A stretch of DNA of 64,000 nt from positions 208,748 through 272,747 of the forward strand of contig OY970175.1 of NCBI GenBank assembly GCA_963707865.1, read 5' to 3'. Shown piece after piece: positions 6,192-62,185 of the stretch. Origin of the DNA: an uncultured bacterium. Its GTDB lineage: Bacteria > Patescibacteriota > Minisyncoccia > UBA6257 > 2-01-FULL-56-20. The translations under genes were made by a program, and so were the position numbers. Position 1 is the first letter of the stretch. Every line of letters starts with the position of its first letter. Below the pieces are notes generated by a model. The model did not search any database, had not been told where the DNA came from, and saw only the letters and a program-made list of their open reading frames with translations.

Positions 6192-6246
6192 TGACCTGGA
6201 CCCCATATATTAGACACAAAGGTCGAAAAGCATTTACCATTGTGTC

Positions 6247-6510
6247 ATGAGCAACAAAACAGGGCATCGGGTGCCGCAAGAAGTGAAGGCGGACATCCTC
6301 CGCCGCGTGAAGGAAGAAGGCGTTTCGGTCGCCCAGGCGGCCAAGGACCACGGCCTGCACGAGTCCACCATCTACAACTGGCTGGGCACCGGAGCTGTGG
6401 GCACTCCTTCGTGGGGCGAGTTCTCACGCCTGCAGAAGCAGAACAAAGAATTGTTTGAGGTGGTGGGCGAGCTCACCGTGAAGCTCTCCCAGGCCCAAAA
6501 AAAGTATTGA
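6247..6510 (+). CDS. IS3-family transposase OrfA (HTH DNA-binding subunit)
   Basis: 'VSVAQAAKDHGLHESTIYNWL' HTH; leucine-zipper-like C-terminus; ends at the A_AAA_AAG slippery heptamer (6498..6504). Confidence 0.85.
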   Translation: MSNKTGHRVPQEVKADILRRVKEEGVSVAQAAKDHGLHESTIYNWLGTGAVGTPSWGEFSRLQKQNKELFEVVGELTVKLSQAQKKY

Positions 6511-7289
6511 GCGAGAGGAGAAACAAGTCCGCCCTGGCAAAAGCCATGGGCGTTTCGCGAGCGAGCCTCTACTACGTGGCGAAACAACACGGGAAGGACT
6601 GGGCGCTCAAGATCCGGATGGAAGAGGTGCTGCAAGAACACCCCTCGTACGGATCGCGCCGCTTGGCTATCGCCCTTGGCATGAACCGCAAACGGACAAA
6701 GCGGGTGATGCGACTGTTCGGCGTGAGACCCTACCGCAGGAGAGGCAGGAAATATCGGAAATCAAAGGCAAAACGTACGTATCCGAACCTGCTCCTCGGC
6801 GTCTGCCCCTCGTATGCGAACCATGTCTGGGCGGCGGATTTCACGGAGATGGTCCAGCACGGCAAAAAGGTGTACGTGGCGACGATCATCGATCTCTTCA
6901 CGCGGCAGACGATGGGCCTTCACGTCGGAACGCGGAAAGGCGCGGCGCTCGTGATCCATGCATTGGCGAACGCCTTGTTCCACCACCCGCGGCCCACGAT
7001 CTTCCACTCGGACAACGGGAGAGAATATGAGGCAAAAGCGTTCATCGCGCTCCTTGAGGAATGGGGCATCACGATTTCACGGTCACGGCCGGGATGCCCG
7101 TGGGAGAACGGCTACCAGGAATCGTTCTACGACAAATTCAAAGTGGATTTCGGCGATCCAAACCGGTTCAGAACCTTGGGCGAGCTCGTGGCCGCGATCT
7201 ACCGCACGGTCTGGGAATACAACCATACCCGGATCCACTCCGCGCTCAAGATGCCGCCCGCGGTGTTTGCCGAGAAAATGGCGGCATGA
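6507..7289 (+). CDS. IS3-family transposase OrfB (DDE/rve integrase catalytic domain), expressed by -1 programmed frameshift from orfA
   Basis: rve-domain motifs 'WAADFTEM...YVATIIDLFTR', 'HSDNGREY', 'PWENGYQESFY'; in -1 frame relative to orfA overlapping at A_AAA_AAG. Confidence 0.85.
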   Translation: MSERRNKSALAKAMGVSRASLYYVAKQHGKDWALKIRMEEVLQEHPSYGSRRLAIALGMNRKRTKRVMRLFGVRPYRRRGRKYRKSKAKRTYPNLLLGVCPSYANHVWAADFTEMVQHGKKVYVATIIDLFTRQTMGLHVGTRKGAALVIHALANALFHHPRPTIFHSDNGREYEAKAFIALLEEWGITISRSRPGCPWENGYQESFYDKFKVDFGDPNRFRTLGELVAAIYRTVWEYNHTRIHSALKMPPAVFAEKMAA

Positions 7290-7943: not shown

Positions 7944-8040
7944 TGTTATTGACCTCTTGTCCGATTGTTTATCGACCTTTGCGCACTCCTCTATTATATA
8001 TACGTTTTTCTTTGAGGTCATGTTGCGTTATAATCACAGC

Positions 8041-9408
8041 ATGGATGCCGTACAAGGCATTTTGAATGCGGCGGGCCAAGTGTTTTGGTACGCGTGGTGG
8101 ATATGGATTCCCCTCGTTTTGTTCCCGCTTTTTGAGTCCACGTGGCTTTTTTGGCGGCAGCAGGTTTTCAAGCGCGAATTGGAATTCGTGCATTTGGAGA
8201 TCCGCATCCCGCGCGAGACGAAGAGAAGCCCGCGGGCGATGGAGCAGGTGCTCATGTCTATCCATAACCTTCGCAATGCACCGGCAGACCCGGAGGAAAA
8301 ATGGTGGGACGGTGAGGTCACGCGCTGGTACGCGCTGGAGTTGGTGAGCATTGGCGGAGAGATTCATCTGTACCTACGCGCGTGGAGAAAGCAAAAGGAG
8401 ATCATCCAGGCGGCGTTCTTTGCCCATTACCCCGATGTGGAGATCGTGGAAGTGGATGATTACATTGACCGGCTGCCTGCGAGCGTGGGAGAGATGTACA
8501 AGAGCGGTTACGACCTTTGGGGATCAGAGTTTACCCTTGCGCGTGAACCCGCGTATCCCATCAGGAGCTACGTGGATTTTGAATCACCGGACGAGGAAAA
8601 GCAGTTTGATCCCATGTCCACCTTCCTTGAGGTTCTCGGCAAGGTGAAGCGCGAGGAGATTTTGTGCGTTCAGTATCTCATCGTGCCGGCGAGCATGGAT
8701 TGGAGAGACAAGTATCAGTCCTTGGTTGAATCATTGCGCACGAGGAATCAGAAGATTGGTGCGGCGGGAGGAGCGAAGCACACCCTTGGGATGGAATTCC
8801 CGCACATCCTTCCCACGTTCCCGGTGAAAACGAGCGGAGAAGGTGAGGATGGCCTGCGCGTCCTTGGAAAGGCAATCATGACGCGGACGCCGGGCGAGAC
8901 CGATGTCCTCAAGGCAGTGGAAGAGAACCTTTCCTTCCCGCCGTTTAACACCCTTATTCGATTCGTCTATTTCTCGCCGAAGGAACTGTATTTTGACACG
9001 CTGCCGCGCCGCGGATTGACCGGCGCATTCAACCAATATGCCGCCGCTAACCTTAATTGGTTTACGCGGAACGAGGAAATCAGCACGAGGGTTAAGTTTT
9101 GGGACTTTCCGTACCTCTTTCCGAATGCGCGCCTTGATCGCAGAAAGAGCCGCGTGCTTGCGGACTATCGCGCGCGGGAAATCCCGCCGGAGACCTCAAT
9201 GGGAAAGGTTATCCGCTCAAAATTTTTGCACTGGGAGCACTCCCGCATGTTTCTCTTGAGCACGCGGTCGCTTGCGACGCTTTTTCATCCGCCGACCTAC
9301 CGCGTGATCACGGCGCCGCACATCAAACGGGTGGTGAGCAGGAAGGCAGGCGCGCCGGCTGGCCTTGCGATCTACGGCGGGGAAGAGGAGATGGAGAAAT
9401 TCAAATAA
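8041..9408 (+). CDS. Hypothetical membrane-anchored protein; first gene of the T4CP-like ATPase cluster
   Basis: N-terminal TM 'FWYAWWIWIPLVLFPLF'; translationally coupled to following genes (ATG overlaps stop at 9408). Start could be 8020 or 8041; ORF track gives 7693. Confidence 0.6.
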   Translation: MDAVQGILNAAGQVFWYAWWIWIPLVLFPLFESTWLFWRQQVFKRELEFVHLEIRIPRETKRSPRAMEQVLMSIHNLRNAPADPEEKWWDGEVTRWYALELVSIGGEIHLYLRAWRKQKEIIQAAFFAHYPDVEIVEVDDYIDRLPASVGEMYKSGYDLWGSEFTLAREPAYPIRSYVDFESPDEEKQFDPMSTFLEVLGKVKREEILCVQYLIVPASMDWRDKYQSLVESLRTRNQKIGAAGGAKHTLGMEFPHILPTFPVKTSGEGEDGLRVLGKAIMTRTPGETDVLKAVEENLSFPPFNTLIRFVYFSPKELYFDTLPRRGLTGAFNQYAAANLNWFTRNEEISTRVKFWDFPYLFPNARLDRRKSRVLADYRAREIPPETSMGKVIRSKFLHWEHSRMFLLSTRSLATLFHPPTYRVITAPHIKRVVSRKAGAPAGLAIYGGEEEMEKFK

Positions 9409-9878
9409 TGGCGATTATCATAATCATCAAGTGGATCTGCATTGTGATTACGATACTGCTTGGCGGGGGTTTTATCTTCGCGTTATATAAGGGCTGGTCG
9501 TATCACCCGCATTATGAATTGGAAAAACGGAAGGCAAAGAAAATACTTACTCTGCGCGATGCGGTGACGAAGGAACACTGGGAAACCATCGTGAGGACAT
9601 TCTCGCTTGGAACGCCGGAGGCCGCGCGGACGGCCGTCATTGAGGCGGATACGCTCGTGGATACGGTGCTCAAAAGCATGGAGATTCCCGGCCAGCACCT
9701 TGCCGACCGGCTGTCCAACTTGGAGCCGGAGGAGGTTGCATCGCTTGATCGGGTATGGCGGGCGCACCGCACGCGGAACGATCTTGTGCACACGCCGGGA
9801 TTTGCACTGACCGAGAAGGAGGCGCAGAAGACGCTCGAGGACTACGAGGCTTTTCTCAAAGATCTGGGAGTGTTATAA
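9408..9878 (+). CDS. Small membrane protein (one N-terminal TM helix)
   Basis: 'MAIIIIIKWICIVITILLGGGFIFALY'; TAATG overlap with upstream gene; 8 bp before downstream ATPase gene. Confidence 0.55.
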   Translation: MAIIIIIKWICIVITILLGGGFIFALYKGWSYHPHYELEKRKAKKILTLRDAVTKEHWETIVRTFSLGTPEAARTAVIEADTLVDTVLKSMEIPGQHLADRLSNLEPEEVASLDRVWRAHRTRNDLVHTPGFALTEKEAQKTLEDYEAFLKDLGVL

Positions 9879-9885
9879 CCACGCT

Positions 9886-11376
9886 ATGCCAAGAGCGGGA
9901 AAGATACAAATTATCAGATACGCGCCGCCGCCGCCCGAACTGCCAATTTACGGGCAGGTGGATCCGGCAGAGGTTTCTTTTATCGGCCGCACGAACTATG
10001 TGGCCCAGCTTGAAGAAAAAAAGTTTGTGTTCGGCATCAAGCGGCACGACCGGCGGCGCCACTTTTATATCGTCGGCAAAAGCGGCGTGGGGAAATCCAA
10101 GCTGCTTGAGCTCCTTATTCGCCAGGACATTGCATACGGCCACGGGATATGCCTTATGGATCCGCACGGCGATGTGATCGAGGCTGTCATGGATTTTGTT
10201 CCGGAGAATCGCGTGAACGACGTGGTGATCATAGACCCTACCGATATGGGCTACCCGGCTTCATTTAACCCGCTGCAGAACGTGGATCCCAGTTTTAAGC
10301 ACCAGCTTGCGCAAGGATTGATTGAAGTGATGGAGAAGCAATTCGGCGCGAACTGGACGCCGCGCCTGGAGCACGTGTTTCGCTTCACTGTACTCGCACT
10401 CCTTGATTATCCGCACGCCACGATGCGGGGGATGATCTCCATGCTTACGGACCGCAACTACCGGCAGAAGGTGGTGGAATATATAGAGGACGACATAGTC
10501 AAACGCTTCTGGGCAATCGAGTTCGCCGACTGGTCGGAAAAATTTGATACGGACGCGATTATCCCGCTTGTGAACAAACTCGGCCAGTTCCTCTCCGACC
10601 CGCTTTTGCGCAACATTTTCGGCCAGAAAGAGAACAGAATCAATCTTGAGGAATTGATGGAACAGAAAAAATTGATTTTTATTAATCTTTCCAAAGGACG
10701 CCTGGGCGAAGAAAATTCCAGTTTTTTGGGCGCGATGTTCATCACGAAAATCAAGCAGGCAGGCATGGCGCGCGCTTCCATACCCGAAAAGGACCGCCAC
10801 GATTTTTATCTTTATGTGGACGAGTTTCACAATCTTGTTACAGAAACGTTTGAGAACATTCTCTCCGAGGCGCGGAAATACGCGCTGTGTCTTACGATCA
10901 CGCATCAATACATGGGCCAGCTCTTGCCGCGCGTGCAAGCGGCGGTACTCGGGAATGTGGGGAGCATCATAATCTTCCGCGTCGGCGGCGAGGACGCGGT
11001 GCACCTGAAGCCAGAAATGGCGCCGATCTTTGACGTGAAAGACATGATCAACCTCGGTACGCAGGAATTCTTCATCAAAATGATGATTGACGGTGAAAGC
11101 TACGATCCCTTTTCCGCGGAGACGCTTAAGGTGCTGCCGCCGCCGCATCGCTCGTTCCGTAAGGAGATTCTGGAACAGTCCCGGAAGAAATATACCATCC
11201 CCGCCGACGCCGCGAAGAAGCTTATTCAAGAAGAGGAGGCCACCATTCTCCGCAGCGCCCAGGAAAAAGCTATTATTGAAGGCAAGGCGAGGGGCAGCGG
11301 GGCGGGCACGGCGGGCGCCGGCGGCGGAGCTAAAGAAGAAGCGGCCGTAGACAAGACCCCCGAGCCTTTGATATAA
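9886..11376 (+). CDS. TraD/VirD4/TrwB-like (type IV secretion coupling-protein family / HerA-FtsK superfamily) P-loop ATPase
   Basis: Walker A 'GKSGVGKS', 'MDPHGD', Walker B 'LYVDEFHNL', 'ITHQYMGQL'; low-complexity Gly/Ala C-terminal tail. Confidence 0.8.
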   Translation: MPRAGKIQIIRYAPPPPELPIYGQVDPAEVSFIGRTNYVAQLEEKKFVFGIKRHDRRRHFYIVGKSGVGKSKLLELLIRQDIAYGHGICLMDPHGDVIEAVMDFVPENRVNDVVIIDPTDMGYPASFNPLQNVDPSFKHQLAQGLIEVMEKQFGANWTPRLEHVFRFTVLALLDYPHATMRGMISMLTDRNYRQKVVEYIEDDIVKRFWAIEFADWSEKFDTDAIIPLVNKLGQFLSDPLLRNIFGQKENRINLEELMEQKKLIFINLSKGRLGEENSSFLGAMFITKIKQAGMARASIPEKDRHDFYLYVDEFHNLVTETFENILSEARKYALCLTITHQYMGQLLPRVQAAVLGNVGSIIIFRVGGEDAVHLKPEMAPIFDVKDMINLGTQEFFIKMMIDGESYDPFSAETLKVLPPPHRSFRKEILEQSRKKYTIPADAAKKLIQEEEATILRSAQEKAIIEGKARGSGAGTAGAGGGAKEEAAVDKTPEPLI

Positions 11377-11383
11377 TATAGGT

Positions 11384-11563
11384 ATGTTCGTGCACCCTGT
11401 CTTTTTTGTCATAGGCATTATTTTGGTTATTTATCTCATAGCGACTGATTTCCATGCGCATCGGCGCATCAAACATTTGGAAAAAACCGTGAGGAAGCTC
11501 GAGGGCATAAACGGGGTGGAACATTCAAAACCTCGCTGGGAGAAGAAGGAGGATCTCTCATAG
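11384..11563 (+). CDS. Possible small membrane protein (59 aa)
   Basis: ATG 11384 eight nt after ATPase stop; 'MFVHPVFFVIGIILVIYLIATDF' TM; not in ORF track (<60 aa). Confidence 0.3.
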   Translation: MFVHPVFFVIGIILVIYLIATDFHAHRRIKHLEKTVRKLEGINGVEHSKPRWEKKEDLS

Positions 11564-11613
11564 CCATAGCGCGCGCGACCAACACCCCGCATTAAAAAAT
11601 TATTAAAAACTGT

Positions 11614-11643
11614 TTGACAGTGCTGGCTGACCTGCACTATAAT
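11614..11643 (+). promoter_or_regulatory. Near-consensus sigma70-type promoter (TTGACA-18 nt-TATAAT) with A/T-rich UP-like element
   Basis: TTGACA 11614..11619, 18-nt spacer, TATAAT 11638..11643; upstream 'attaaaaaattattaaaaac'. Confidence 0.55.
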
Positions 11644-11651
11644 GAGAACGA

Positions 11652-12101
11652 TTATTGGGATTTCCCACCGATCCCCGCCTCGCAAGAGGCGGGGTGAATA
11701 TTTTTAAGGCCATAGGTGGTCGAGAGTGCGTCGGTGACTTTTGCGAACGATTCATCACTCAACGTTGTCAGCCTTTTTACAAGTCGCTTGCTATCAAAGG
11801 TTCTTATCTGGCTCAAAATTGCTGTATTAGTTTTGCCGCCCTGAGTTATCGGAAAATACCATCTGCCTTCTTTTGCCCGACTCGTGAGCGGGATGCCGAG
11901 AAATGAATTCGCGTTGAATTTTTTGAATATGATGACGGGGCGCGTGAACCGTTTGCCTTTGCCGTAAATCTCCACGCCGATGTTTATACCAATACTGCAC
12001 CACCAGATTTCGCCTTCCTTGAAAAGCGTTTTTGATGGCGCGCCGTGCAGTATTACTGCTGTTCGCCACCAGCCGATGAGTGTAAGAAAATATTGCAGCA
12101 T
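11652..12101 (-). CDS. PemK/MazF-family toxin-like endoribonuclease (orphan; no adjacent antitoxin ORF evident)
   Basis: Kid/PemK-like motifs 'GEIWW', 'GxExxGKxRFTRPVII', 'IPLTS', 'QIRTFDSKRL...L..L'; true start uncertain. Confidence 0.6.
   Translation of the reverse strand: MLQYFLTLIGWWRTAVILHGAPSKTLFKEGEIWWCSIGINIGVEIYGKGKRFTRPVIIFKKFNANSFLGIPLTSRAKEGRWYFPITQGGKTNTAILSQIRTFDSKRLVKRLTTLSDESFAKVTDALSTTYGLKNIHPASCEAGIGGKSQ
11673..11706 (+). terminator. Intrinsic terminator hairpin (9-bp GC stem, GCAA tetraloop) followed by T-rich tract, ~30 nt downstream of the promoter's predicted start
   Basis: CCCCGCCTC-gcaa-GAGGCGGGG then 'tgaatattttt'; U-tract only on plus strand. Confidence 0.55.
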
Positions 12102-12171
12102 ATCGCCACGTTACCACATCGCCCATTAAAATTTCATAAAATACAGGGCCTAAAAGAGGTATACTATTTAT

Positions 12172-13962
12172 ATGACAAGCGAGACCAAAATTTGCCAAAA
12201 TTGCAAGCAATCCTTCGCGATTGAGCCCGAGGATTTTGCGTTCTATGAGAAAATAAGAGTTCCGCCGCCGACATGGTGCCCGGAATGCCGGCTCGTGCGA
12301 AGACTGTTGTTTTTCAATGAGCGGACGATCTATAAACGCCCTTGCGCCCTTTGCGGGAAGGATTTTATGTCTCTTTTTCCCAAAGAGTCGCCATATACGG
12401 TGTATTGCGATGCTTGCTGGTGGTCTGACAAATGGGATCCGCTCTCTTACGGCAAGGAAGTGGATTTTTCGCGGCCGTTTCTTGAACAACTTCATGAACT
12501 CTTCCGGCAAGTGCCGCAAATCGGGCGGAACGTCATCACGTCCACGTTCGTAAACAGCGACTATTGCAACGCCGCGTCGTATCTCAAAAATTGCTATCTT
12601 ATTTTTAATTCCGACTACGACGAGGACTGTATGTTCAGCACCTATTTGGAACGGAGCAAGAGTTCGTTCGACCTTTATATGTGCGACCATTGCGAGCGGT
12701 GTTATGAGGGAAGCAACCTTTTGAAGGACTTCAATGTCCGGTGGTCGGACAACTGCAACGAATGCATAGACGTTTCTTTCTCCAAAAATTGCATTGGTTG
12801 TTCCCATTGTTTCGGCTGTGTGAACCTCCACCGCAAGCAGTATCACATCTGGAATCAGTCGTACTCAAAAGAGGAATATTTCAAAGAGACTGCGAAGTAC
12901 GATATTGGTTCGTTTCGTGCGGTGGAGGAGTTCAAGAAGCGGAGCCGCGAACTTTCCCTGCGCTATCCAAAAAAGTTTGCCGAAGGGTTCCATAATGAAA
13001 ACGTAAGCGGGGATTATGTGTATAACTCAAAAAATACGTTCTGGAGCGACGAAGTGGGCGATTGCCGCGATTGCAAATTCTGCCAGTTTCTTTTCCTTTT
13101 CCCGACGAGCGATGCCTACGATTACACCATGTGGGGCATCGCGGAGCGGATATATGAATGCATGGGGGCAGGCGGGGGCGCGCGAGACGTGAAGTTTTGC
13201 ACCAACACATGGACCGAGCATATGAATGTGGAATATTCCAGGGACGTGTTTCTCGCAAGCAGCGACCTCTTTGGTTGCATAGCACCCAAGAAGTACCGGT
13301 TTTGCATTTTGAACAAACAATATTCCGAGGGCGAGTACCGCGCGCTTCGCGGAAAAGTGATCGCCCACATGGACGCCATGCCGTATGTGGATAGAAAGGG
13401 ACGTGTCTATAAATACGGTGAATTCTTTCCGCCGGAATTGTCGCCGTTCGGCTACAACGAAACAATTGCCCAAGCGCACCGCCCCCTCACAAAAGACGAT
13501 ACAGAGAAAGCCGGATTTCTCTGGCACCATCTGGAAGCGACCACCTATCAGCCGACCGTGCGCGCGGAAGAGCTCCCTGACAATATCAAAGAAGTTGCCG
13601 ATTCGATTCTGACCGAAGTGATTGAGTGCGCGCATAAAGGAAATTGCATCGATCAATGTCCCGGCGCTTTCCGAATCACACCCCAAGAGCTTGCATTCTA
13701 CCGGCAATCGCTCATACCGCTGCCGCGCCTGTGCCACAATTGCCGCCATTACGCCCGCCTTTTTTATCACAATCCGATTCTGCGTTTGTTCAAAAGGAAA
13801 TGTCAGTGTGGCGGTAGCGACTCGGCAAATGGAGTTTATAAAAACGCAGCGACGCATTTCCACGGCACCGCGTCCTGCCCCAACGGGTTTGAAACCTCCT
13901 ATGCCCCCGATCGTTCTGAGATCGTGTATTGCGAGCAGTGCTACAACGCGGAGGTGGTGTAG
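12172..13962 (+). CDS. Cys-rich multi-zinc-ribbon repeat protein of unknown function (paralog 1)
   Basis: N-terminal 'CQNCK...PPPTWCPECR' and 'CALCGK...YCDACW' ribbons; many CxxC/NC repeats; C-terminal ribbon 'LCHNCR'. N-terminal ~80 aa and nucleotide sequence closely match ORF starting 62886. Confidence 0.8.
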   Translation: MTSETKICQNCKQSFAIEPEDFAFYEKIRVPPPTWCPECRLVRRLLFFNERTIYKRPCALCGKDFMSLFPKESPYTVYCDACWWSDKWDPLSYGKEVDFSRPFLEQLHELFRQVPQIGRNVITSTFVNSDYCNAASYLKNCYLIFNSDYDEDCMFSTYLERSKSSFDLYMCDHCERCYEGSNLLKDFNVRWSDNCNECIDVSFSKNCIGCSHCFGCVNLHRKQYHIWNQSYSKEEYFKETAKYDIGSFRAVEEFKKRSRELSLRYPKKFAEGFHNENVSGDYVYNSKNTFWSDEVGDCRDCKFCQFLFLFPTSDAYDYTMWGIAERIYECMGAGGGARDVKFCTNTWTEHMNVEYSRDVFLASSDLFGCIAPKKYRFCILNKQYSEGEYRALRGKVIAHMDAMPYVDRKGRVYKYGEFFPPELSPFGYNETIAQAHRPLTKDDTEKAGFLWHHLEATTYQPTVRAEELPDNIKEVADSILTEVIECAHKGNCIDQCPGAFRITPQELAFYRQSLIPLPRLCHNCRHYARLFYHNPILRLFKRKCQCGGSDSANGVYKNAATHFHGTASCPNGFETSYAPDRSEIVYCEQCYNAEVV

Positions 13963-13987
13963 CGAAGAAGGCCCGATAATTGTTGTT

Positions 13988-14938
13988 TCATGTCCGTACA
14001 TTTGTCCCCTCGATAGATTGAAGATATTCGACCGGCGTCTTTCCGGCAAGGGCAAGGTGAGGACAGATGGTATTGTACCAGGCACAGTAAGCGGCCTGTT
14101 TTTGTTTTGCCTCGGCCACGGTGCGGAACGCCACCTTGTTCCAGAACCGTTCCCGGTCGTTGCGGTGGGAACGTTCCACCTTGCCGTTCTGCGCGGGATG
14201 CCCGGGAGCGATGAGATAGTGGACCATCTTCTGTTTTGCGCAGGCGAGGTCGAACGGATGCAACCGCGGCTTCATGGGGTCAGCTGATTTCGGATATCCT
14301 ATGTAGCGATTCGTAAAGATGGATCCGTTGTCGGTCTTCACCGCACGGATGCGGAACGGTGCGGCCGCAATGACCCTTTCGAGAAACAGGATCGCGGTTC
14401 TCGTGGATTGTTCCTGGGTTACCCACAGATGCCGCCACCGGGTGCAGCAGTCGATCGCGGTGAACTGGTAGAGCCAGTTGCCCTTGAATTTCCTCACGTA
14501 GACGACGTCGATCTCCACCATCTCGCCGGGGAACGTGGCCGTCGGTTTCCACTTTTCCTTGGGCGTGAGACGCTTCTTCGTACGCGAGAGGCCTTCACGC
14601 TTCAATACTTTTGCAATGCCGCGTGCCGAGAGCCGCATGCCTTCGCGGGCGAGGAGGTGTACGAGCACGTCCGGACCGAGATCGGTCTCCGTTCTCATAG
14701 TCCGGATCTTTTTCACGATATCTCGCGAAAACTGTTTTGGGTGTGCGTGCGGCCTGCGCGATCTGGGCACGAGGGCGCTCGCCCCGCCACTGCGATATGC
14801 CGCCACCCAACGCTTCAGCGTACGGTATGAAAATGGTGCGTGGGCAGCAATGGCCTTGATGCTCATCTCTTTTTCAAGATGCGGCCTGATCCACCGCATT
14901 CGTTCCTCCGCTGCGTCTTTGGCAAGTGTTTGTGGCAT
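13988..14938 (-). CDS. IS481-family DDE transposase
   Basis: 'FTAIDCCTRW', 'VKTDNGSIF', 'PGHPAQNGKVERSH' rve/IS481 motifs; start taken at 'MPQTLAKD' (ORF track extends to 15073). Confidence 0.85.
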   Translation of the reverse strand: MPQTLAKDAAEERMRWIRPHLEKEMSIKAIAAHAPFSYRTLKRWVAAYRSGGASALVPRSRRPHAHPKQFSRDIVKKIRTMRTETDLGPDVLVHLLAREGMRLSARGIAKVLKREGLSRTKKRLTPKEKWKPTATFPGEMVEIDVVYVRKFKGNWLYQFTAIDCCTRWRHLWVTQEQSTRTAILFLERVIAAAPFRIRAVKTDNGSIFTNRYIGYPKSADPMKPRLHPFDLACAKQKMVHYLIAPGHPAQNGKVERSHRNDRERFWNKVAFRTVAEAKQKQAAYCAWYNTICPHLALAGKTPVEYLQSIEGTNVRT

Positions 14939-14980
14939 ATTCCCCAGCTTACGCTTCGAGGGGCCATATGTATGTGCAGA
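13992..14980 (-). mobile_element. IS481-family insertion sequence (copy A)
   Basis: Imperfect terminal inverted repeats 'TGTCCGTACATTTGTCCCCTCGA' (13992..14014) and 'TCGAGGGGCCATATGTATGTGCAGA' (14956..14980), ~18/23 matching; single DDE transposase inside. Confidence 0.8.
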
Positions 14981-15033
14981 GTACCTTGTTGACTGGCGAA
15001 ATCGCAGGAATCGTGGTATAATAGGAACAGAAC

Positions 15034-17022
15034 ATGGAGGAAGTTCCGGATAAAAACGTAATATATTTCGCACGAACCGATTTTCGCAATCAAGATCGGC
15101 TTTTTGGTATTAAGCGGAGCGACCGGCGCCAGCATATGTATGTCATAGGAAAAACCGGTACCGGCAAAAGCGCGCTCCTCAACAATATGGCCGTGCAGGA
15201 TATCGCGAACGGCGAGGGGCTTTGCGTGGTGGACCCGCATGGTGAGCTCGTGGAGGGGCTTATGAAAAGGATCCCGGAGGAACGGATGAAGGATGTCATC
15301 TATTTCAATCCGGCAGATACGGATTTTCACATCGGCTTCAACGTGCTGGAGCTGCCCGACCCAAAGTACAAGCACCTTGTGGCATCGGGACTCATGGGAA
15401 TTTTCACAAAGATTTGGGCGGGCGTCTGGTCGCCGCGCATGGAATACATTTTGAATAATTGCGTGCTCGCGCTCTTGGATACTCCGGGTTCCACGCTCCT
15501 CGGCATCCCTCGGCTTCTGACCGACAAAGATTACCGGCAGAAGATCATCGCGAACATAAAAGACCCCGTCGTGAAGGCGTTTTGGATCCACGAATTTGAA
15601 GGGTGGCAGGACCGGTTCAGGAACGAGGCCATCGCGCCGATACAGAACAAGGTGGGCCAATTCCTTTCCACCGCGCTTATCCGCAACATCGTCGGCCAAT
15701 CAAAGAGTACTGTGGACATTTTTGACGTGATGAACGAGGGAAAAATCTTCCTTGTGAATGTTTCCAAGGGTCGCATCGGGGAGGACAATTCTGCGCTCCT
15801 GGGCGCGATGCTTATCACGAAGATCCAGCTTTCGGCAATGGAGCGCGTGCGCGTCCCCGAGGACGAACGTGTGGACTTTTATCTTTATGTGGACGAGTTC
15901 CAGAACTTCGCCACGGATTCCTTCGCGGGCATCCTTTCCGAAGCGCGGAAGTACCGCCTGGATCTTATTCTCGCGCACCAATATATCGGCCAGCTCATCA
16001 CCGACACTTCGACGAGGGTGCGCGACGCGATCTTTGGTAACGTGGGAACAATGGTCACGTTCCGGGTGGGTGCTACCGATGCGGAGTTCCTGGAGAACGA
16101 GTTCACGCCTGAGTTCGTGATAGAAGACATCGTAAATCTTCCGAATTATTCCATCTATCTGAAGCTTATGGTGGACGGCGTGACGGCGCGCCCATTTTCC
16201 GCGGCCACGCTCCCCCCGCTTCAGGTGAAAACTTCCGCGATGGTAGAATCCGAGATCATCAGGATGTCACAGAAGCGCTACGCCCGGCCGCGCGAGGTCG
16301 TAGAGGAAGAGATCAATCGCTGGAGCGGCGTGATGGGACCGCCTGCGGCTACCAGTGCGGAAAAGAAAGGCGGAGATACGACGAGGTACGAAGCCGTATG
16401 TTCTTCATGCGGCAAGATGACGACGTTGCCGTTCGAGCCGACGCCGGGCCGGCCGGTGTATTGCCGCGATTGTTTGAAGAAAATAGAAGCAGGCGAACTT
16501 CAACCGATACGGGTGCCGCGCGCGTCAGTCGTACGCACGAGACCGCAGAAAAAATACGCAGATGATTTGAGTTATCTCGGCATTGAGTTCCCGGAGCAGG
16601 GAGCGCCGGCCGAGCTGCAGCCGGCGACGAGAAGGGCGCCGGTACCGGTGCGTCCCATGGGTTCCATGGATGGAAGGGGAGGGGCAGGAGCACCAATTTC
16701 CGGTTACGGGCCAAAAGCGGCCATGCCAACCTCTGTACCGGCCGCTGCGCCAGCCGCGCCGCCATCCGCCGAGCCGGCGGGGCGGACGCTTTCGCTATCT
16801 GAATTGAAATCGGCGGATCGGAGACCGAAGCTGAAGAAATCGCAACAACACGAGGAGATCAACATTTCCGAACTTCGGGAGGCAATCAAGGCATCATTGA
16901 GCGCAGATATCGGTGCGGGCTCCGCGCAGGCCGCCGAGGCGGAAAAAAGCGTCAGCGCTGACACCGATAAACGGGATGGCGAAGAAGACGGCAGCGACGA
17001 GGAGCGTGTGCGCCGCATTTGA
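15034..17022 (+). CDS. TraD/VirD4-like P-loop ATPase paralog with C-terminal CxxC-x17-CxxC zinc ribbon and long low-complexity acidic/Ala-Pro tail
   Basis: Walker A 'GKTGTGKS', 'VDPHGE', Walker B 'LYVDEFQNF', 'AHQYIGQL'; 'CSSCGKMTTLPFEPTPGRPVYCRDC'. Confidence 0.8.
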   Translation: MEEVPDKNVIYFARTDFRNQDRLFGIKRSDRRQHMYVIGKTGTGKSALLNNMAVQDIANGEGLCVVDPHGELVEGLMKRIPEERMKDVIYFNPADTDFHIGFNVLELPDPKYKHLVASGLMGIFTKIWAGVWSPRMEYILNNCVLALLDTPGSTLLGIPRLLTDKDYRQKIIANIKDPVVKAFWIHEFEGWQDRFRNEAIAPIQNKVGQFLSTALIRNIVGQSKSTVDIFDVMNEGKIFLVNVSKGRIGEDNSALLGAMLITKIQLSAMERVRVPEDERVDFYLYVDEFQNFATDSFAGILSEARKYRLDLILAHQYIGQLITDTSTRVRDAIFGNVGTMVTFRVGATDAEFLENEFTPEFVIEDIVNLPNYSIYLKLMVDGVTARPFSAATLPPLQVKTSAMVESEIIRMSQKRYARPREVVEEEINRWSGVMGPPAATSAEKKGGDTTRYEAVCSSCGKMTTLPFEPTPGRPVYCRDCLKKIEAGELQPIRVPRASVVRTRPQKKYADDLSYLGIEFPEQGAPAELQPATRRAPVPVRPMGSMDGRGGAGAPISGYGPKAAMPTSVPAAAPAAPPSAEPAGRTLSLSELKSADRRPKLKKSQQHEEINISELREAIKASLSADIGAGSAQAAEAEKSVSADTDKRDGEEDGSDEERVRRI

Positions 17023-58937: not shown

Positions 58938-60200
58938 ATGAGGCGGCATCCGGGCCTTTTTTTGACGATTATCATTCTCGTCGCGATTGCGGCGGGATTT
59001 TTCGTCTATCCGAAGTGGATTGGTTCGCAGTGGCAGCCATGGCACCTGGGGTTGGACCTCGTGGGGGGCAGCCATTTGGTCTACCAAATTGACCTTTCAA
59101 AAGTGGCGGCAGCGGACCAGGACTCCGTCGTGCAGGGGCTCCGCGACGTGATTGAAAAACGCGTGAATCTTTTTGGTGTGAGCGAACCACAAGTATATAC
59201 CGCGCAGACGGGGAACCAGGCGCAGCTTATTATTGATCTCGCGGGCGTGAAGAATGTGAGCGATGCGATCAACCAAATCGGCCAGACGCCGCTTTTGGAT
59301 TTCCGCGAGGTGGAGCAGAACGGTTCAACCACGCAATATGTGTATACGAACCTCACCGGTGAATACGTGACGGGCGCGCAGCTGAATTTCAACCAAACGA
59401 CCGGCGCGGCGGAGGTGCAGGTCTCATTCAACGATCAGGGCGCGCAGATTTTCGCCAAGATCACGGCGGCCAACGTCGGGAAACCTTTGGCGATTTTTTT
59501 GGATAATAATCTGATTGAGGCGCCCGTGGTGCAAGAAGCGATTCCGAACGGCAAGGCGGTCATCAGCGGCAATTTCACGGTGGATAGCGCCCGCACGCTC
59601 GTGGAACGCTTCAACGCTGGCGCACTGCCTGCGCCCATTACGCTCATTAACCAGCAGACGGTAAGCCCCACGCTCGGCGCCGATTCACTGCGGAAGGTGA
59701 TTGTGGCGGGCATCGCAGGAACGCTCCTTGTAATTCTTTTCATGCTTTTTTACTACCGGCTGCTCGGCCTTTTCGCCGCATTTGCGCTCATCATTTACAT
59801 TGCGCTCACGCTCGGAGTCTTCAAAATTATTCCCATTACCTTAAGCTTGTCCGGACTTGCGGGATTTATTCTTACGATCGGCATGGCGGTAGACGCAAAT
59901 ATCCTTATTTTTGAACGTATTAAAGAAGAATTAAAGAGGGGACTGCCAAAGTCGTCCGCCATAGAAGAAGGATTCCGGCGTGCGTGGCCGTCCATCAGGG
60001 ACTCCAACACGTCCACTATCATCACCGCGATCATCCTGTATTATTTCACCTCAAGTTTCGTGCAGGGCTTCGCTTTGACGCTCCTTCTCGGTGTCATCGT
60101 AAGTTTGTTCAGCGCCATCACGACCACGCGCCTCTTCCTTCGCGCATTTTTGAAGGACACGAAACCATCGCAGCCGTCGCCCAAGCCCGCCACCACATAA
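58938..60200 (+). CDS. secD: Protein translocase subunit SecD
   Basis: Periplasmic domain followed by 6 TM; 'LPAPITLINQQTVSPTLGADSL'. Confidence 0.9.
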   Translation: MRRHPGLFLTIIILVAIAAGFFVYPKWIGSQWQPWHLGLDLVGGSHLVYQIDLSKVAAADQDSVVQGLRDVIEKRVNLFGVSEPQVYTAQTGNQAQLIIDLAGVKNVSDAINQIGQTPLLDFREVEQNGSTTQYVYTNLTGEYVTGAQLNFNQTTGAAEVQVSFNDQGAQIFAKITAANVGKPLAIFLDNNLIEAPVVQEAIPNGKAVISGNFTVDSARTLVERFNAGALPAPITLINQQTVSPTLGADSLRKVIVAGIAGTLLVILFMLFYYRLLGLFAAFALIIYIALTLGVFKIIPITLSLSGLAGFILTIGMAVDANILIFERIKEELKRGLPKSSAIEEGFRRAWPSIRDSNTSTIITAIILYYFTSSFVQGFALTLLLGVIVSLFSAITTTRLFLRAFLKDTKPSQPSPKPATT

Positions 60201-60201
60201 T

Positions 60202-61101
60202 ATGCTCAACATCGTCGGCCGCAAAAAAATTTGGTTTACGCTGTCCGGCATTCTTGTCGGCTTGGCGCTTTTGGCCATCGCATTCTACGGTTTTAAGCAA
60301 AGTGCGGAATTCTTGGGCGGCTCCCTTTGGGAATTCAAAATTCCAGCGAACCAGCCGTCACTTTCCGATGTGCAGGACTTTTTTGCGAACGATCTCACGA
60401 TCAATGGCGCGGAGATAACGCTTGACACCACAAACCAATCCTTCATCGCGCGTTTCAATATCGTAGACGAAGCGACCCACGAACGGTATTTGGGCATGCT
60501 GCAAAATAAGTGGCCGTCGTTCACCGAGTTGAGTTTCTCGTCCATCGGCCCTACGGTCGGCGCGAGCTTGAAGAAAAATGCGCTCATTGCGATCGGACTT
60601 GTCCTCGTCGGCATCTCACTCTATATTGCCTTCGCTTTCCGAAAGGCGTCGCGGCCCGTGAGTTCGTGGAAATATGGATGGGTTACGCTCCTTACACTCT
60701 TCCACGATGTTTCCATTCCGGCGGGATTACTCGCGGTGCTTGGACGCTTTAAGGGGGTGGAGATTGACACGAATTTCATCGTGGCGTTGCTTGTCGTGAT
60801 GGGCTTTTCGGTACATGACACCATCGTCGTGTTTGACCGCATCCGCGAGAATCTGATCACGCATCGCGGGAAATCCAGCTTCACCACTATTGTGAACGAC
60901 AGCGTGAATCAGACACTCGCACGGTCAATAAACACGTCCCTCACGTTGATCCTCGTGCTTCTCGCGCTCTATTTCGTGGGCCCTGCGGATCTTCGATACT
61001 TCATTCTTACTCTTCTCGTGGGGGTGACCACCGGCATCTATTCTTCCATCTTTATCGCCAGTCCCGCCCTCGTGCTTTTGAAGCCGAGGGGTGTGGATTA
61101 A
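60202..61101 (+). CDS. secF: Protein translocase subunit SecF
   Basis: 'FLGGSLWEF', 'LFHDVSIPAG', 'VVFDRIREN'. Confidence 0.9.
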   Translation: MLNIVGRKKIWFTLSGILVGLALLAIAFYGFKQSAEFLGGSLWEFKIPANQPSLSDVQDFFANDLTINGAEITLDTTNQSFIARFNIVDEATHERYLGMLQNKWPSFTELSFSSIGPTVGASLKKNALIAIGLVLVGISLYIAFAFRKASRPVSSWKYGWVTLLTLFHDVSIPAGLLAVLGRFKGVEIDTNFIVALLVVMGFSVHDTIVVFDRIRENLITHRGKSSFTTIVNDSVNQTLARSINTSLTLILVLLALYFVGPADLRYFILTLLVGVTTGIYSSIFIASPALVLLKPRGVD

Positions 61102-61139
61102 CGTGCTTGCTAAAAAGATACTGATAAGTTATAATAACC

Positions 61140-62174: not shown

Positions 62175-62185
62175 CGCAGCATAAC

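What the first reader, a model, noticed from the sequence alone, without database searches (positions are those of the whole stretch)
8041..17022. Two paralogous TraD/VirD4-like ATPases with dedicated membrane partners, an orphan MazF-like toxin, a Cys-rich zinc-ribbon protein and an IS481 insertion
Genes 8041 (about 455 aa, N-terminal TM), 9408 (156 aa, TM) and 9886 (496 aa, T4CP/HerA-FtsK-like ATPase) are translationally coupled. A second ATPase paralog at 15034 (662 aa) has the same motifs (Walker A 'GK(S/T)G(V/T)GKS', 'DPHG', 'VDEF(H/Q)N', 'HQY(M/I)GQL'). It also carries an extra C-terminal CxxC-x17-CxxC zinc ribbon and a long acidic/Ala-Pro tail. No relaxase, VirB4 or pilin genes are present in the window. 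These may therefore be non-conjugative uses of the coupling-protein fold, such as DNA uptake, surface or host interaction, or defence. An IS481 lies immediately upstream of the second paralog and could affect its expression.
Basis: partly seen in the sequence, partly recalled or inferred. Interest (0 to 1): 0.65.

Follow-up and report, generated by a model that had tools for sequence, protein, structure and literature searches.

The report
Conserved coupling-ATPase operon of Paceibacteria
The two TraD/VirD4-like ATPases belong to a chromosomal gene cluster, with membrane-anchor, HEPN-domain and zinc-finger partner proteins, that nearly all surveyed relatives (Paceibacteria/Parcubacteria, ultra-small bacteria) keep at one genomic position, so it looks like an uncharacterised housekeeping membrane motor and not a plasmid-transfer leftover.

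Summary

In 80 species-level Patescibacteria genomes the order SecD-SecF-sigma4/HARE-HTH protein | DUF8128 - small TM protein - ATPase1 - [Cys-rich protein]x1-5 - ATPase2 | TrmD recurs almost unchanged.

- **Conservation:** ATPase1 is the most conserved gene there, at median 80% identity against 55-77% for SecD.
- **8041 product:** Pfam DUF8128. It has an aromatic TM anchor and a cytoplasmic domain whose only PDB fold matches are VirB4/TrwK.
- **9408 product:** a membrane-anchored HEPN domain with a conserved RNxxxH motif.
- **Missed gene:** a 59-aa TM microprotein at 11384-11563.
- **Cys-rich protein:** one member of a huge family with no Pfam model. It shares the treble-clef zinc finger with the ATPase2 tail.
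- **Local additions:** MazF and the IS elements. ATPase2 keeps its own conserved promoter downstream of the IS.

No VirB4 or relaxase lies nearby in any genome examined.

Best reading: a type-IV-coupling-complex-like motor made of T4CPs that lack a transmembrane domain, plus separate membrane tethers and adaptors. Its substrate and channel are unknown. I rate it a new variant of a known kind.

The parts
8029..8034 (+). TATAAT -10 box 6 nt upstream of the DUF8128 start codon. Probable promoter of the operon, giving a leaderless or very short leader.
   Evidence: Read directly from the sequence. The same TATAAT-type box lies 6-20 nt upstream of the start codon in relatives L005, L007-L011 and L014. 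No such box precedes ATPase1.
8041..9408 (+). DUF8128 protein (455 aa). It has an N-terminal aromatic-rich TM anchor (residues 13-31), an alpha/beta cytoplasmic domain with a VirB4-N-terminal-domain-like fold (suggestive only), and a conserved disordered C-terminal tail (426-455).
   Evidence: Precomputed Pfam PF26449 on homologs. There are 2,429 50%-identity cluster representatives at E<=1e-3. The ten looked up that carried a name were all Patescibacteria/Parcubacteria or unclassified 'bacterium' MAGs. AF2 model pLDDT 79.6, pTM 0.75. The top 14 Foldseek PDB hits are all TrwK/VirB4, E 5e-6 to 3.5e-3, but TM-scores are only 0.22-0.33. hhalign against VirB4 N-terminal domains was negative. TM energetics.
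9408..9878 (+). Single-pass membrane protein with a cytoplasmic HEPN (Swt1-like) domain. It carries a conserved RNxxxH motif (R123, N124, H128).
   Evidence: TM at residues 1-30. 12 of 31 orthologs hit Pfam HEPN_Swt1 (best E 8.5e-5) and others hit HEPN_RiboL-PSP, HEPN_Cthe2314 or DUF4145. The window's own copy gives no HEPN hit. R123, N124 and H128 are conserved in 73, 70 and 67 of 75 sequences. It lies immediately downstream of DUF8128 in 78 of 79 loci.
9886..11376 (+). ATPase1: a VirD4/TrwB-family (T4CP) P-loop ATPase without a transmembrane domain. It has a conserved N-terminal tail (MPxxGKIQIIKYAPPPPELPIYGQ).
   Evidence: Pfam and NCBIfam hits. Best PDB sequence match of the family profile is TrwB (E 4e-6), then DotL (0.03), with no VirB4. 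No hydrophobic segment. Median identity to orthologs is 80% (range 59-95%), above SecD at 55-77%. N-terminal tail conservation.
11384..11563 (+). 59-aa single-pass TM microprotein, 7 nt after the ATPase1 stop.
   Evidence: ORF. TM at residues 1-26. Homologous 57-64-aa ORFs with the same TM plus an 'LH.R.K.LE..V.RLEG' motif sit at the same position in L005, L007, L008, L009, L012, L014, L019, L022, L029, L033 and L036. It is a called gene in L001.
11652..12101 (-). MazF/PemK-like toxin gene without a recognisable antitoxin. A lineage-specific insert, not part of the conserved cluster.
   Evidence: Pfam PemK_toxin 51 bits. Present at this position only in the closest relatives L005 and L006 (63% identity, against about 90% for flanking genes) and absent from the other loci. 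No antitoxin ORF found.
12172..13962 (+). Cys-rich protein 1 (596 aa, 37 Cys). Treble-clef/zinc-ribbon pairs at both ends flank a duplicated Cys-rich central region. It is one member of the paralog arrays that follow ATPase1.
   Evidence: Over 7,600 homologs and no Pfam family. 15-16 of 36 members weakly hit zf_Tbcl_2 or zf_Tbcl. AF2 model pLDDT 80.5, pTM 0.81, with no whole-fold match in PDB or BFVD. Arrays of 1-4 or more copies lie within 10 kb downstream of the operon in 36 of 45 loci. A TATACT box lies at 12160-12165.
13991..14978 (-). IS481-family insertion sequence (transposase 13988 to about 14938, minus strand), inserted into the short spacer between the Cys-rich gene and ATPase2.
   Evidence: NCBIfam transpos_IS481 above cut-off. 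Inverted repeats. The non-IS spacer that remains (28 + 55 bp) matches the natural 70-90 bp spacer in L012.
15014..15022 (+). Extended -10 promoter element TGgTATAAT, 11 nt upstream of the ATPase2 start codon and retained downstream of the IS.
   Evidence: Read directly from the sequence. TATAAT/TATAGT-type boxes lie 6-11 nt upstream of the ATPase2 start in about a dozen of the 19 relatives printed, including L012, L026, L028, L037, L040, L044, L047, L051, L063 and L069.
15034..17022 (+). ATPase2: a paralogous TMD-less T4CP-family ATPase with a C-terminal CxxC-x17-CxxC treble-clef zinc finger (nt 16384-16482), a conserved 'LGIEF' motif and an Ala/Pro-rich then acidic tail.
   Evidence: 70% identical over residues 5-629 to the Ryanbacteria ortholog, so it is intact. 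The ATPase2 type is the one paired directly with DUF8128 in distant lineages L097 and L098 and in L011 and L077. Tail composition. Motif conservation.
58938..62851 (+). SecD, SecF, a sigma70-region-4/HARE-HTH protein (61140-62174) and TrmD (62186-62851). These are the ancestral flanks of the cluster and are directly joined here.
   Evidence: Pfam. In most of the 80 genomes, and in nearly every locus with enough upstream sequence, SecD-SecF-p344 lies immediately upstream of DUF8128. TrmD follows ATPase2 wherever ATPase2 was within reach (L004).
62886..64000 (+). Cys-rich protein 2 (partial, runs off the window). A paralog 41% identical to Cys-rich 1, left at the ancestral site next to TrmD.
   Evidence: Direct-repeat family D2, translation and blastp.
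6247..7289 (+). IS3-family element (OrfA-like 6247-6510, OrfB 6507-7289) about 750 bp upstream of the operon, near the left breakpoint of synteny with the closest relative.
   Evidence: NCBIfam transpos_IS3 205.6 bits against a cut-off of 160. Nucleotide synteny with L005 runs only from about 7999 to about 12290.

Best explanation
The region is the Paceibacteria version of a type IV coupling complex, encoded as a chromosomal, vertically inherited housekeeping cluster.

Shown:
- A promoter-proximal operon encodes (i) DUF8128, a membrane-anchored protein with a large cytoplasmic alpha/beta domain, (ii) a single-pass HEPN-domain protein, (iii) ATPase1, a VirD4/TrwB-family ATPase that lacks the usual transmembrane domain, and (iv) a 59-aa TM microprotein.
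- This operon is followed by arrays of zinc-finger Cys-rich paralogs and by ATPase2. ATPase2 has a C-terminal extension carrying the same zinc-finger type.
- The gene set and order are conserved in most of the 80 species-level genomes examined.

Inferred:
- The soluble ATPases form hexameric motors that DUF8128, the HEPN protein and the microprotein hold at the membrane. This replaces the missing T4CP transmembrane domain, as TraI does for TraJ of pIP501.
- The HEPN dimer, the ATPase2 zinc-finger/acidic tail and the Cys-rich proteins act as substrate-recruiting adaptors (compare VBP-VirD4 and DotL-DotM-DotN), or the Cys-rich proteins are themselves cargo.
- The VirB4-N-terminal-domain-like domain of DUF8128 lets the motor dock on the VirB3/VirB6/VirB8-type platform of the relaxase-less Patescibacteria T4SS encoded elsewhere. 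The motor then energises export of a macromolecule, either protein or nucleoprotein/nucleic acid.

MazF and the IS elements are later, local insertions.
For: - Family assignment of both ATPases.
- No TM segment in either ATPase, against TM anchors in the three small partners.
- Tight gene packing: 1-nt overlap and 7-nt spacers. Only DUF8128 has a promoter-like box.
- Co-occurrence: 78 of 79 and 63 of 67 loci. The DUF8128 + ATPase pair persists in lineages where DUF8128 is only 26-29% identical.
- The module moved as a unit in the window's lineage.
- ATPase1 is more conserved than SecD, SecF and TrmD.
- HEPN assignment and motif.
- Shared zf_Tbcl_2 domain between ATPase2 and the Cys-rich family.
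- DUF8128 fold matches VirB4/TrwK only.
- Literature. T4CPs lacking a TMD work with small membrane partners (PMC7434980). The HEPN protein VBP recruits substrate to VirD4 as a dimer (PMC3953389). Among 3,035 Patescibacteria genomes, 2,918 have T4CP homologs (about 2 per genome), only 148 of 5,713 homologs lie near virB4, and the T4SS clusters mostly lack relaxases (PMC12102498). The S. epibionticum T4SS cluster has no recognisable coupling protein (PMC10633639).
Against: - No physical or genetic link to any T4SS gene was seen in about 80 neighbourhoods.
- The published survey found T4CP homologs in more genomes (2,918) than VirB4 (2,417).
- The T4CP homolog of S. epibionticum was dispensable while its T4SS was essential. 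That organism belongs to a different class.
- The DUF8128-VirB4 similarity rests on Foldseek alone, with TM-scores of 0.22-0.33. A profile-profile comparison with VirB4 N-terminal domains found nothing.
- The module contains no polytopic channel protein, and no substrate is identified.
- The intact RNxxxH motif suggests the HEPN domain may be a catalytic RNase and not a passive adaptor.
- Zinc-loaded Cys-rich proteins are odd secretion cargo.
Confidence: 0.45

Rival explanations
1. Autonomous split VirB3/VirB4-like translocase. DUF8128 (TM + VirB4-NTD-like domain) plus the adjacent ATPase reproduce the domain order of VirB3-VirB4 in two polypeptides. They would form a T4SS-independent housekeeping membrane motor, importing or exporting nucleic acid or protein through a pore made by the oligomerised single-pass helices or through another channel such as SecYEG/SecDF or ComEC.
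For: - Gene order TM-NTD-like protein then ATPase is universal, and the pair is the minimal conserved core.
- The only fold matches are VirB4.
- VirB3-VirB4 fusions exist on IncX-type plasmids (annotations).
- Fixed position next to SecD-SecF in most of the 80 genomes.
- More genomes carry the T4CP than VirB4.
- Conservation exceeds SecD.
- The HEPN domain and zinc fingers are nucleic-acid-associated domain types.
- A 57%-identical ATPase sits between lysis genes (holin, M23 peptidase) and nuclease genes on a phage-like contig without DUF8128.
Against: - The ATPases are VirD4/TrwB-type, not VirB4-type, by every profile.
- hhalign of DUF8128 against VirB4 N-terminal domains was negative.
- Foldseek TM-scores are low.
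- There is no polytopic membrane protein in the module.
- Synteny with SecDF and TrmD may only reflect a stable backbone.
Confidence: 0.2
2. DNA motor for chromosome handling or DNA uptake. The ATPases would act like FtsK/SpoIIIE (segregation at the septum) or like a competence translocase. The zinc-finger proteins and the upstream sigma4/HARE-HTH protein would be DNA-binding accessory factors.
For: - T4CPs are the sister family of FtsK, and TrwB is the best PDB sequence match.
- Housekeeping-level conservation and chromosomal context.
- Zinc ribbons and HTH neighbours.
- A phage-like contig carries a relative next to PLD and PD-(D/E)XK nucleases.
Against: - No FtsK_SpoIIIE or FtsK-gamma domain hit.
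- Nothing links the module to comEC or division genes in the neighbourhoods seen.
- Presence or absence of FtsK in these genomes could not be checked.
- Arrays of 4-5 large Cys-rich paralogs are not explained.
Confidence: 0.12
3. Conflict or defence system. A membrane HEPN RNase would be regulated by P-loop ATPases (compare PrrC/RloC-type ATPase-HEPN effectors), with MazF and variable Cys-rich sensors.
For: - HEPN domain with an intact RNxxxH motif.
- MazF adjacent in three close genomes.
- Weak PADLOC hits of the ATPases to mad8 and HerA.
- The Cys-rich copies differ between close relatives.
Against: - The locus sits at the same position in most of the 80 genomes and is inherited vertically.
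- ATPase1 is 59-95% identical across the class, more than SecD. That is the opposite of the patchy, fast-evolving pattern of defence islands.
- No system-level PADLOC match.
- DUF8128 is absent from 2.9 million viral contigs.
- MazF is absent from all but the closest relatives.
Confidence: 0.05

Closest known systems
TraJ/TraI of pIP501, the 'T4CP lacking TMD' subfamily (PMC7434980)
   Same: A VirD4-family ATPase without a transmembrane domain is encoded next to a small membrane protein that is thought to supply the membrane anchor.
   Different: - pIP501 TraJ/TraI lie inside a 15-gene conjugative tra operon with a relaxase and VirB4.
- Here the genes are chromosomal, present across the class and have no tra neighbours.
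- The partners are different families (DUF8128, HEPN-TM, a 59-aa protein).
- There are two ATPase paralogs.
- Homology of the partners to TraI was not tested.
Legionella Dot/Icm type IV coupling complex (DotL-DotM-DotN-IcmSW). Composition recalled from my own knowledge; DotL was the second PDB sequence hit at E 0.03.
   Same: A T4CP ATPase works with a membrane partner that has a cytoplasmic domain, and with small zinc-binding adaptor proteins attached to a C-terminal extension of the ATPase.
   Different: - DotL has its own TMD.
- No sequence or fold match of DUF8128 to DotM, or of the Cys-rich proteins to DotN, was seen.
- The Cys-rich proteins are about 600 aa and occur in arrays of up to 5 or more.
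VBP-VirD4 of Agrobacterium (PMC3953389)
   Same: A HEPN-domain protein acts with a VirD4-type coupling protein. Dimeric VBP binds both substrate and VirD4.
   Different: - VBP is soluble and carries an N-terminal nucleotidyltransferase-like part.
- Here the HEPN domain is membrane-anchored, keeps an RNxxxH catalytic-type motif, and is translationally coupled to the ATPase gene.
VirB3-VirB4 (TrwM-TrwK of R388; PDB 7o42, 7o43, 8rtb, 8rtd)
   Same: The order TM anchor, N-terminal alpha/beta domain, RecA-like ATPase is the same. The DUF8128 model's only significant PDB fold hits are TrwK chains.
   Different: - The ATPase here is a separate polypeptide of the VirD4/TrwB type.
- There is no sequence-profile similarity to VirB4 N-terminal domains.
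- TM-scores are low.
T4CP homologues counted in Patescibacteria by Quinonero-Coronel et al. 2025 (PMC12102498)
   Same: Almost certainly the same ATPases: about 2 per genome, rarely near virB4, and 'exaptation cannot be ruled out'.
   Different: In the passages read, that study does not describe the partners (DUF8128, HEPN-TM, microprotein, Cys-rich arrays), the fixed SecDF/TrmD context or the conservation level. Nothing in the searchable library mentions DUF8128.

Membership tests
VirD4/TrwB-type type IV coupling protein (T4CP) | P-loop NTPase with Walker A/B and profile match to the T4CP nucleotide-binding and all-alpha domains | tested here: met
   TrwB_AAD_bind scores 40.2 and 44.2 bits (cut-off 20.5) and T4SS-DNA_transf 33.2 and 24.3 bits (cut-off 20.1). 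The core Walker A residues and the DEF residues of Walker B are invariant in 23 sequences. TrwB is the best PDB hit.
VirD4/TrwB-type type IV coupling protein (T4CP) | N-terminal transmembrane domain | tested here: not met
   Neither ATPase has a hydrophobic 19-residue window. The N-termini are conserved soluble tails.
VirD4/TrwB-type type IV coupling protein (T4CP) | Genetic association with a relaxase and/or a VirB4-based mating-pair-formation system | tested here: not met
   None in the window. None within about 10 kb in the six loci with called genes and Pfam annotation, and no TrwK-like tblastn hit in any of the fetched Patescibacteria loci. The rest of the genome could not be searched.
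VirD4/TrwB-type type IV coupling protein (T4CP) | Reaches NCBIfam equivalog cut-offs (TraD, CD1115-type VirD4) | tested here: not met
   Best score is conju_CD1115 at 55.6 bits against a cut-off of 250. SXT_TraD scores 41.8-45.5 against 366.
VirD4/TrwB-type type IV coupling protein (T4CP) | Hexameric, DNA-stimulated ATPase that recruits substrates to a T4SS channel | not testable with these tools
   Needs biochemistry or genetics.
T4CP lacking TMD with a small membrane partner (TraJ/TraI pIP501 type) | TMD-less T4CP encoded next to a small membrane protein | tested here: met
   (78 of 79 and 63 of 67 loci).
T4CP lacking TMD with a small membrane partner (TraJ/TraI pIP501 type) | Embedded in a conjugative tra operon | tested here: not met
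   Chromosomal housekeeping context between SecDF/p344 and TrmD.
VirB4 (N-terminal domain) | Fold similarity to the VirB4/TrwK N-terminal domain | tested here: inconclusive
VirB4 (N-terminal domain) | Sequence-profile similarity to VirB4 N-terminal domains (CagE_TrbE_VirB) | tested here: not met
   hhalign of A1 against 12 MPF_T VirB4 N-terminal domains gave probability 0.5%. No Pfam hit for 33 members. No PDB sequence hit.
HEPN superfamily (Swt1-like) | Conserved Rx4-6H motif | tested here: met
   RNxxxH: R123 in 73 of 75, N124 in 70 of 75, H128 in 67 of 75 orthologs.
HEPN superfamily (Swt1-like) | Profile match to a HEPN family | tested here: inconclusive
   12 of 31 orthologs hit HEPN_Swt1 (best E 8.5e-5), and 5 more hits go to other HEPN families. 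The window's own copy has no HEPN hit at E<=10.
HEPN superfamily (Swt1-like) | Four-helix HEPN fold, dimer and RNase activity | not tested
MazF/PemK type II toxin-antitoxin | PemK/MazF toxin domain | tested here: met
   51 bits against a cut-off of 23.1.
MazF/PemK type II toxin-antitoxin | Adjacent cognate antitoxin gene | tested here: not met
   Only 70 bp lie upstream. No plausible small ORF in operon arrangement.
IS481 family insertion sequence | DDE transposase reaching the IS481 equivalog cut-off, with terminal inverted repeats | tested here: met
   239.2 bits against 224. 23-bp inverted repeats with 18 matches. The target-site duplication is not clear.
Known anti-phage defence systems (PADLOC) | System-level match of several components | tested here: not met
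   Only the ATPases hit mad8 and HerA, at E 1e-5 to 4e-12. DUF8128, the 59-aa protein, MazF and the Cys-rich protein have no hit.

The most novel reading that the evidence does not exclude
DUF8128 plus its ATPase is a third, deep-branching lineage of the VirB4/VirD4 ATPase radiation: a split VirB3-VirB4-like architecture with a VirD4-type motor. It has become an autonomous, probably essential, housekeeping translocase of Paceibacteria. A membrane-tethered HEPN RNase and arrays of zinc-finger proteins select or process a nucleic-acid or nucleoprotein substrate exchanged with the host.
Probability: 0.15. Interest if true: 0.85.

Novelty: new variant of a known kind. Interest (0 to 1): 0.62.

Why it matters
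Paceibacteria (Parcubacteria) are among the most diverse and least understood bacteria, and how they exchange material with hosts is an open question.

- **Scale and conservation:** this cluster takes up 1% or more of an approximately 0.9-Mb genome. Its ATPase is more conserved than SecD. It sits at one chromosomal position in most of the 80 surveyed species-level genomes.
- **What is uncharacterised:** three of its protein families have no functional annotation. These are DUF8128, the HEPN-TM protein, and the Cys-rich family with more than 7,600 homologs.
- **What it offers:** a concrete candidate for the 'missing' coupling apparatus of the relaxase-less Patescibacteria T4SS, or alternatively a new kind of membrane motor. 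Either way it gives defined targets for genetics, proteomics and structure prediction.

Tried and rejected
- **Local Pfam and NCBIfam scans of the 8041 product.** No hit. The local library lacks PF26449, which appears only in precomputed annotations.
- **Sequence searches of PDB.** The DUF8128 profile and ATPase1 alone gave nothing.
- **Profile-profile test of DUF8128 against VirB4 N-terminal domains.** I built A4 from 12 plasmid VirB4 N-terminal domains. The result was negative. These were proteobacterial MPF_T VirB4s only; Gram-positive or Patescibacteria VirB4 and TrsD could not be obtained.
- **Cys-rich protein.** No whole-fold match in PDB or BFVD (only local zinc-ribbon matches).
- **RNA_pol_Rpb5_N hit of the 156-aa protein.** E 0.0018, below cut-off. 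Rejected as a short helical similarity overlapping the HEPN motif region.
- **Cas11e PADLOC hit of the same protein.** E 2e-4. Rejected as helical-bundle noise.
- **'Candidatus Saccharibacteria' labels on many loci.** Not taken as evidence for Saccharimonadia. These are generic names on third-party MAGs whose proteins are 45-63% identical to Minisyncoccia and Parcubacteria ones.
- **Look-up of the source contig via the identical protein P0121.** Failed. The rest of the 899-kb genome could not be inspected for virB4, ftsK or comEC.
- **Direct repeats flanking the IS481.** A possible TTGTTG was noticed on reading the ends, but it is not in register with the inverted repeats, so I make no claim.

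Full report
**What is in the window**

The window is chromosomal DNA of a Patescibacteria (Minisyncoccia/Paceibacteria) genome. The closest relatives are the MAG JBEKRC010000002 and the complete 888-kb chromosome OY970382.1, whose DUF8128 ortholog is 87-89% identical. The rest of the window carries housekeeping genes: carA/carB, pyrD, aldolase, dnaX, SecDF, TrmD and ArgRS. Pfam scans of about 40 of the larger ORFs, and tblastn with TrwK, found no T4SS component.

**Checking the observation**

- Both ATPases pass the Pfam cut-offs for TrwB_AAD_bind and T4SS-DNA_transf. They fall far short of every NCBIfam equivalog cut-off for TraD or VirD4.
- They are 44% identical, E 1e-136. The core residues of the Walker A, DPHG, VDEF and HQY motifs are invariant across 23 orthologs of both types.
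- A profile of the family finds TrwB (E 4e-6) and DotL (0.03) in the PDB, but no VirB4.
- Neither ATPase has a hydrophobic segment.
- ATPase2 carries a CxxC-x17-CxxC treble-clef finger (zf_Tbcl_2, E 2.5e-15). This domain type has been shown to bind zinc in Methanosarcina small proteins (PMC12704099).
- MazF (PemK_toxin) and the IS481 transposase are confirmed. The IS spans about 13991-14978 between 23-bp imperfect inverted repeats.

**The cluster is conserved, and larger than described**

Homologs of the 8041 product carry Pfam PF26449 (DUF8128) and are 45-65% identical across Parcubacteria lineages. A profile search finds 2,429 cluster representatives. The ten looked up that carried a name were all Patescibacteria/Parcubacteria or unclassified 'bacterium' MAGs.

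I fetched the locus from 80 species-representative genomes and mapped the window's proteins onto them:

| Feature | Loci with the feature |
|---|---|
| 156-aa protein directly after DUF8128 | 78 of 79 |
| T4CP ATPase within 1.3 kb (61 of ATPase1 type) | 63 of 67 |
| At least one Cys-rich paralog within 10 kb | 36 of 45 (mode 4 copies) |
| ATPase2 within 10 kb, usually at the far end of the Cys-rich array | 14 of 45 |

Upstream, SecD-SecF and a sigma70-region-4/HARE-HTH protein precede DUF8128 in most genomes. TrmD follows ATPase2.

Median identity to the window's proteins:

| Protein | Identity |
|---|---|
| ATPase1 | 80% (median) |
| ATPase2 | 70% (median) |
| DUF8128 | 50% (median) |
| 156-aa protein | 42% (median) |
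| Cys-rich proteins | 42% (median) |
| SecD | 55-77% (range) |
| TrmD | 52-68% (range) |

In two distant lineages, where DUF8128 is only 26-29% identical, the pair DUF8128 plus an ATPase2-type ATPase is still adjacent. There it lacks the HEPN protein and the Cys-rich genes. That pair is therefore the ancestral core.

**New details on the parts**

1. **DUF8128.** It has an aromatic-rich TM anchor (residues 13-31, Wimley-White -19.6 kcal/mol). The AF2 model is confident (pLDDT 79.6, pTM 0.75) and shows alpha/beta domains and a conserved disordered C-tail. Its top 14 Foldseek PDB hits are all TrwK/VirB4 of R388 (E 5e-6 to 3.5e-3), and the next hits are unrelated at E > 0.01. TM-scores are only 0.22-0.33. 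A profile-profile comparison with 12 VirB4 N-terminal domains was negative. I treat the VirB4-NTD resemblance as suggestive, not established.
2. **The 156-aa protein.** It is a single-pass membrane protein with a HEPN domain. 12 of 31 orthologs hit HEPN_Swt1, and the RNxxxH motif is about 90% conserved or better at each of its three positions.
3. **A 59-aa TM microprotein (11384-11563).** It follows ATPase1 after 7 nt and is conserved in 11 other genomes. In many other genomes a CutA1 gene sits there instead.
4. **The Cys-rich protein.** It belongs to a family with more than 7,600 homologs and no Pfam model. 15-16 of 36 members weakly match zf_Tbcl and zf_Tbcl_2, the finger type found in ATPase2. 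Its confident AF2 model (pLDDT 80.5, pTM 0.81) has no whole-fold match in PDB or BFVD. A second paralog starts at 62886.

**Transcription units and the IS**

TATAAT-type boxes lie 6-11 nt upstream of the start codons of DUF8128 (8029-8034), Cys-rich 1 (12160-12165) and ATPase2 (TGgTATAAT, 15014-15022). Equivalent boxes occur in relatives. None precedes the 156-aa gene or ATPase1, which are packed with a 1-nt overlap and 7-nt spacers. The operon is therefore DUF8128, HEPN-TM, ATPase1 and the microprotein. ATPase2 has its own promoter and is probably leaderless.

The IS481 sits in what is naturally a 70-90-bp spacer, and it leaves the ATPase2 promoter intact. It could still block read-through from upstream.

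**Rearrangement in this lineage**

In the window, SecD-SecF-p344 is joined directly to TrmD and Cys-rich 2 (58.9-64 kb), while the module lies 50 kb away. Nucleotide synteny with OY970382.1 covers only about 7999-12290. The module has also lost its SecDF context in L005, L007 and L008. An IS3 (6.2-7.3 kb), the IS481, and a second IS481-like gene (57914-58849) lie at or near the junctions. The operon therefore moved as a unit, which argues for functional cohesion.

MazF is found only in the three closest genomes, at 63% identity against about 90% for its flanks.

**Interpretation**

The architecture parallels known type IV coupling complexes:
- T4CPs without a TMD that rely on small membrane proteins, such as TraJ/TraI of pIP501 (PMC7434980).
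- A HEPN-domain recruiter that binds VirD4, namely VBP (PMC3953389).
- Zinc-binding adaptors on a T4CP C-terminal extension, as in DotL-DotN (from my own knowledge).

A published survey found about 2 T4CP homologs per Patescibacteria genome, almost never near virB4, alongside a relaxase-less chromosomal T4SS (PMC12102498). Nothing in the searchable literature mentions DUF8128.

I therefore favour a membrane-tethered coupling motor that feeds the Patescibacteria T4SS. In this model DUF8128 is the docking element. Confidence is 0.45.

What this model does not explain:
- There is no linkage to T4SS genes.
- More genomes have the T4CP than have VirB4.
- Conservation is at housekeeping level.
- The HEPN motif looks catalytically intact.

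These points keep three rivals alive:
- An autonomous split VirB3/VirB4-like translocase (0.20).
- A DNA-handling motor (0.12).
- Defence (0.05), which is disfavoured by universal synteny, by the lack of any system-level PADLOC match, and by the absence of DUF8128 from 2.9 million viral contigs.

A 57%-identical ATPase2-like gene lies between lysis and nuclease genes on a phage-like contig (holin, M23 peptidase, PLD and PD-(D/E)XK nucleases). This hints that the ATPase clade can act on DNA.

**Verdict**

- The 'non-conjugative use' idea is partly supported.
- The specific function remains unknown.
- The finding is a new variant of a known kind: a TMD-less T4CP with dedicated partners. It is embedded in a previously undescribed, class-wide conserved cluster.

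Noticed in passing
window 58938-64000 compared with 8041-17022: The ancestral site of the cluster (SecD-SecF-sigma4/HARE-HTH protein ... TrmD) is 'empty' here. p344 is joined directly to TrmD and a second Cys-rich paralog, while the module lies 50 kb away. IS3 (6247-7289), IS481 (13991-14978) and an IS481-like gene (57914-58849, 76% identical over 89 nt) sit at or near the junctions, which suggests IS-mediated rearrangement.
   Followed up: partly
window 8029-8034, 12160-12165, 15014-15022; loci: TATAAT-type -10 boxes lie only 6-11 nt upstream of start codons, and this is conserved in relatives. It implies leaderless or near-leaderless mRNAs for these genes. The SD-like AGGA upstream of ATPase2 would then lie outside the transcript.
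   Followed up: partly
window about 20000-26300: A low-GC island (31-34% against about 54%). It contains arginyl-tRNA synthetase (20912-22606), four radical-SAM genes, two of them with SPASM domains (19799-20878, 22616-23680, 23690-24589, 24660-25538 minus strand), and a phosphoribosyltransferase. It is probably horizontally acquired. An essential aaRS inside it is odd.
   Followed up: no
window 47546-48907 and 48989-49060: A large serine recombinase (Resolvase + Recombinase + Zn_ribbon_recom) lies next to tRNA-Gln. This may be the edge of an integrated element.
   Followed up: no
loci L021, L028, L037, L041, L043, L046, L047, L049, L051, L052, L055, L056, L058, L059, L062, L065, L066, L070, L073-L075, L081; L004 11863-12171: In many genomes a 101-aa CutA1 (divalent-cation tolerance, PII-like) gene directly follows ATPase1 or sits inside the cluster. 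This is a recurrent neighbour of a cluster full of zinc-binding proteins.
   Followed up: no
L099 (IMGVR_UViG_3300015370_000561) 4956-6254: A 432-aa ATPase 57% identical to ATPase2 lies on a phage-like contig between a holin, an M23 peptidase, a PLD-family nuclease and a PD-(D/E)XK nuclease, with no DUF8128. Two more viral contigs (L100, L101) carry relatives at 45-46% identity to ATPase2 (39% to ATPase1).
   Followed up: partly
window 11652-12101; L005 13696-14145; L006 15491-15940: The orphan MazF has been kept at the same spot in three related genomes but is only 63% identical, while flanking genes are about 90% identical. This suggests relaxed or diversifying selection on a toxin with no visible antitoxin.
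   Followed up: partly
window 2839-6360 minus strand: A 1173-aa repetitive Thr/Ser-rich surface-type protein. It has a 99% identical 229-nt direct repeat (3964-4192 and 4249-4477), poly-Gly tracts and a C-terminal peptidoglycan-binding-like end.
   Followed up: no
window 27053-36511 minus strand: A cluster of de novo pyrimidine genes: dihydroorotase-like amidohydrolase, dihydroorotate dehydrogenase, and the carbamoyl-phosphate synthase large and small chains. This is notable in a phylum usually described as lacking nucleotide biosynthesis.
   Followed up: no
L008 11877-13519: The ATPase1 ortholog is recovered in two overlapping tblastn pieces (residues 1-210 and 193-496) separated by about 100 nt. 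This may be a frameshift, a small insertion or an assembly error in that MAG.
   Followed up: no
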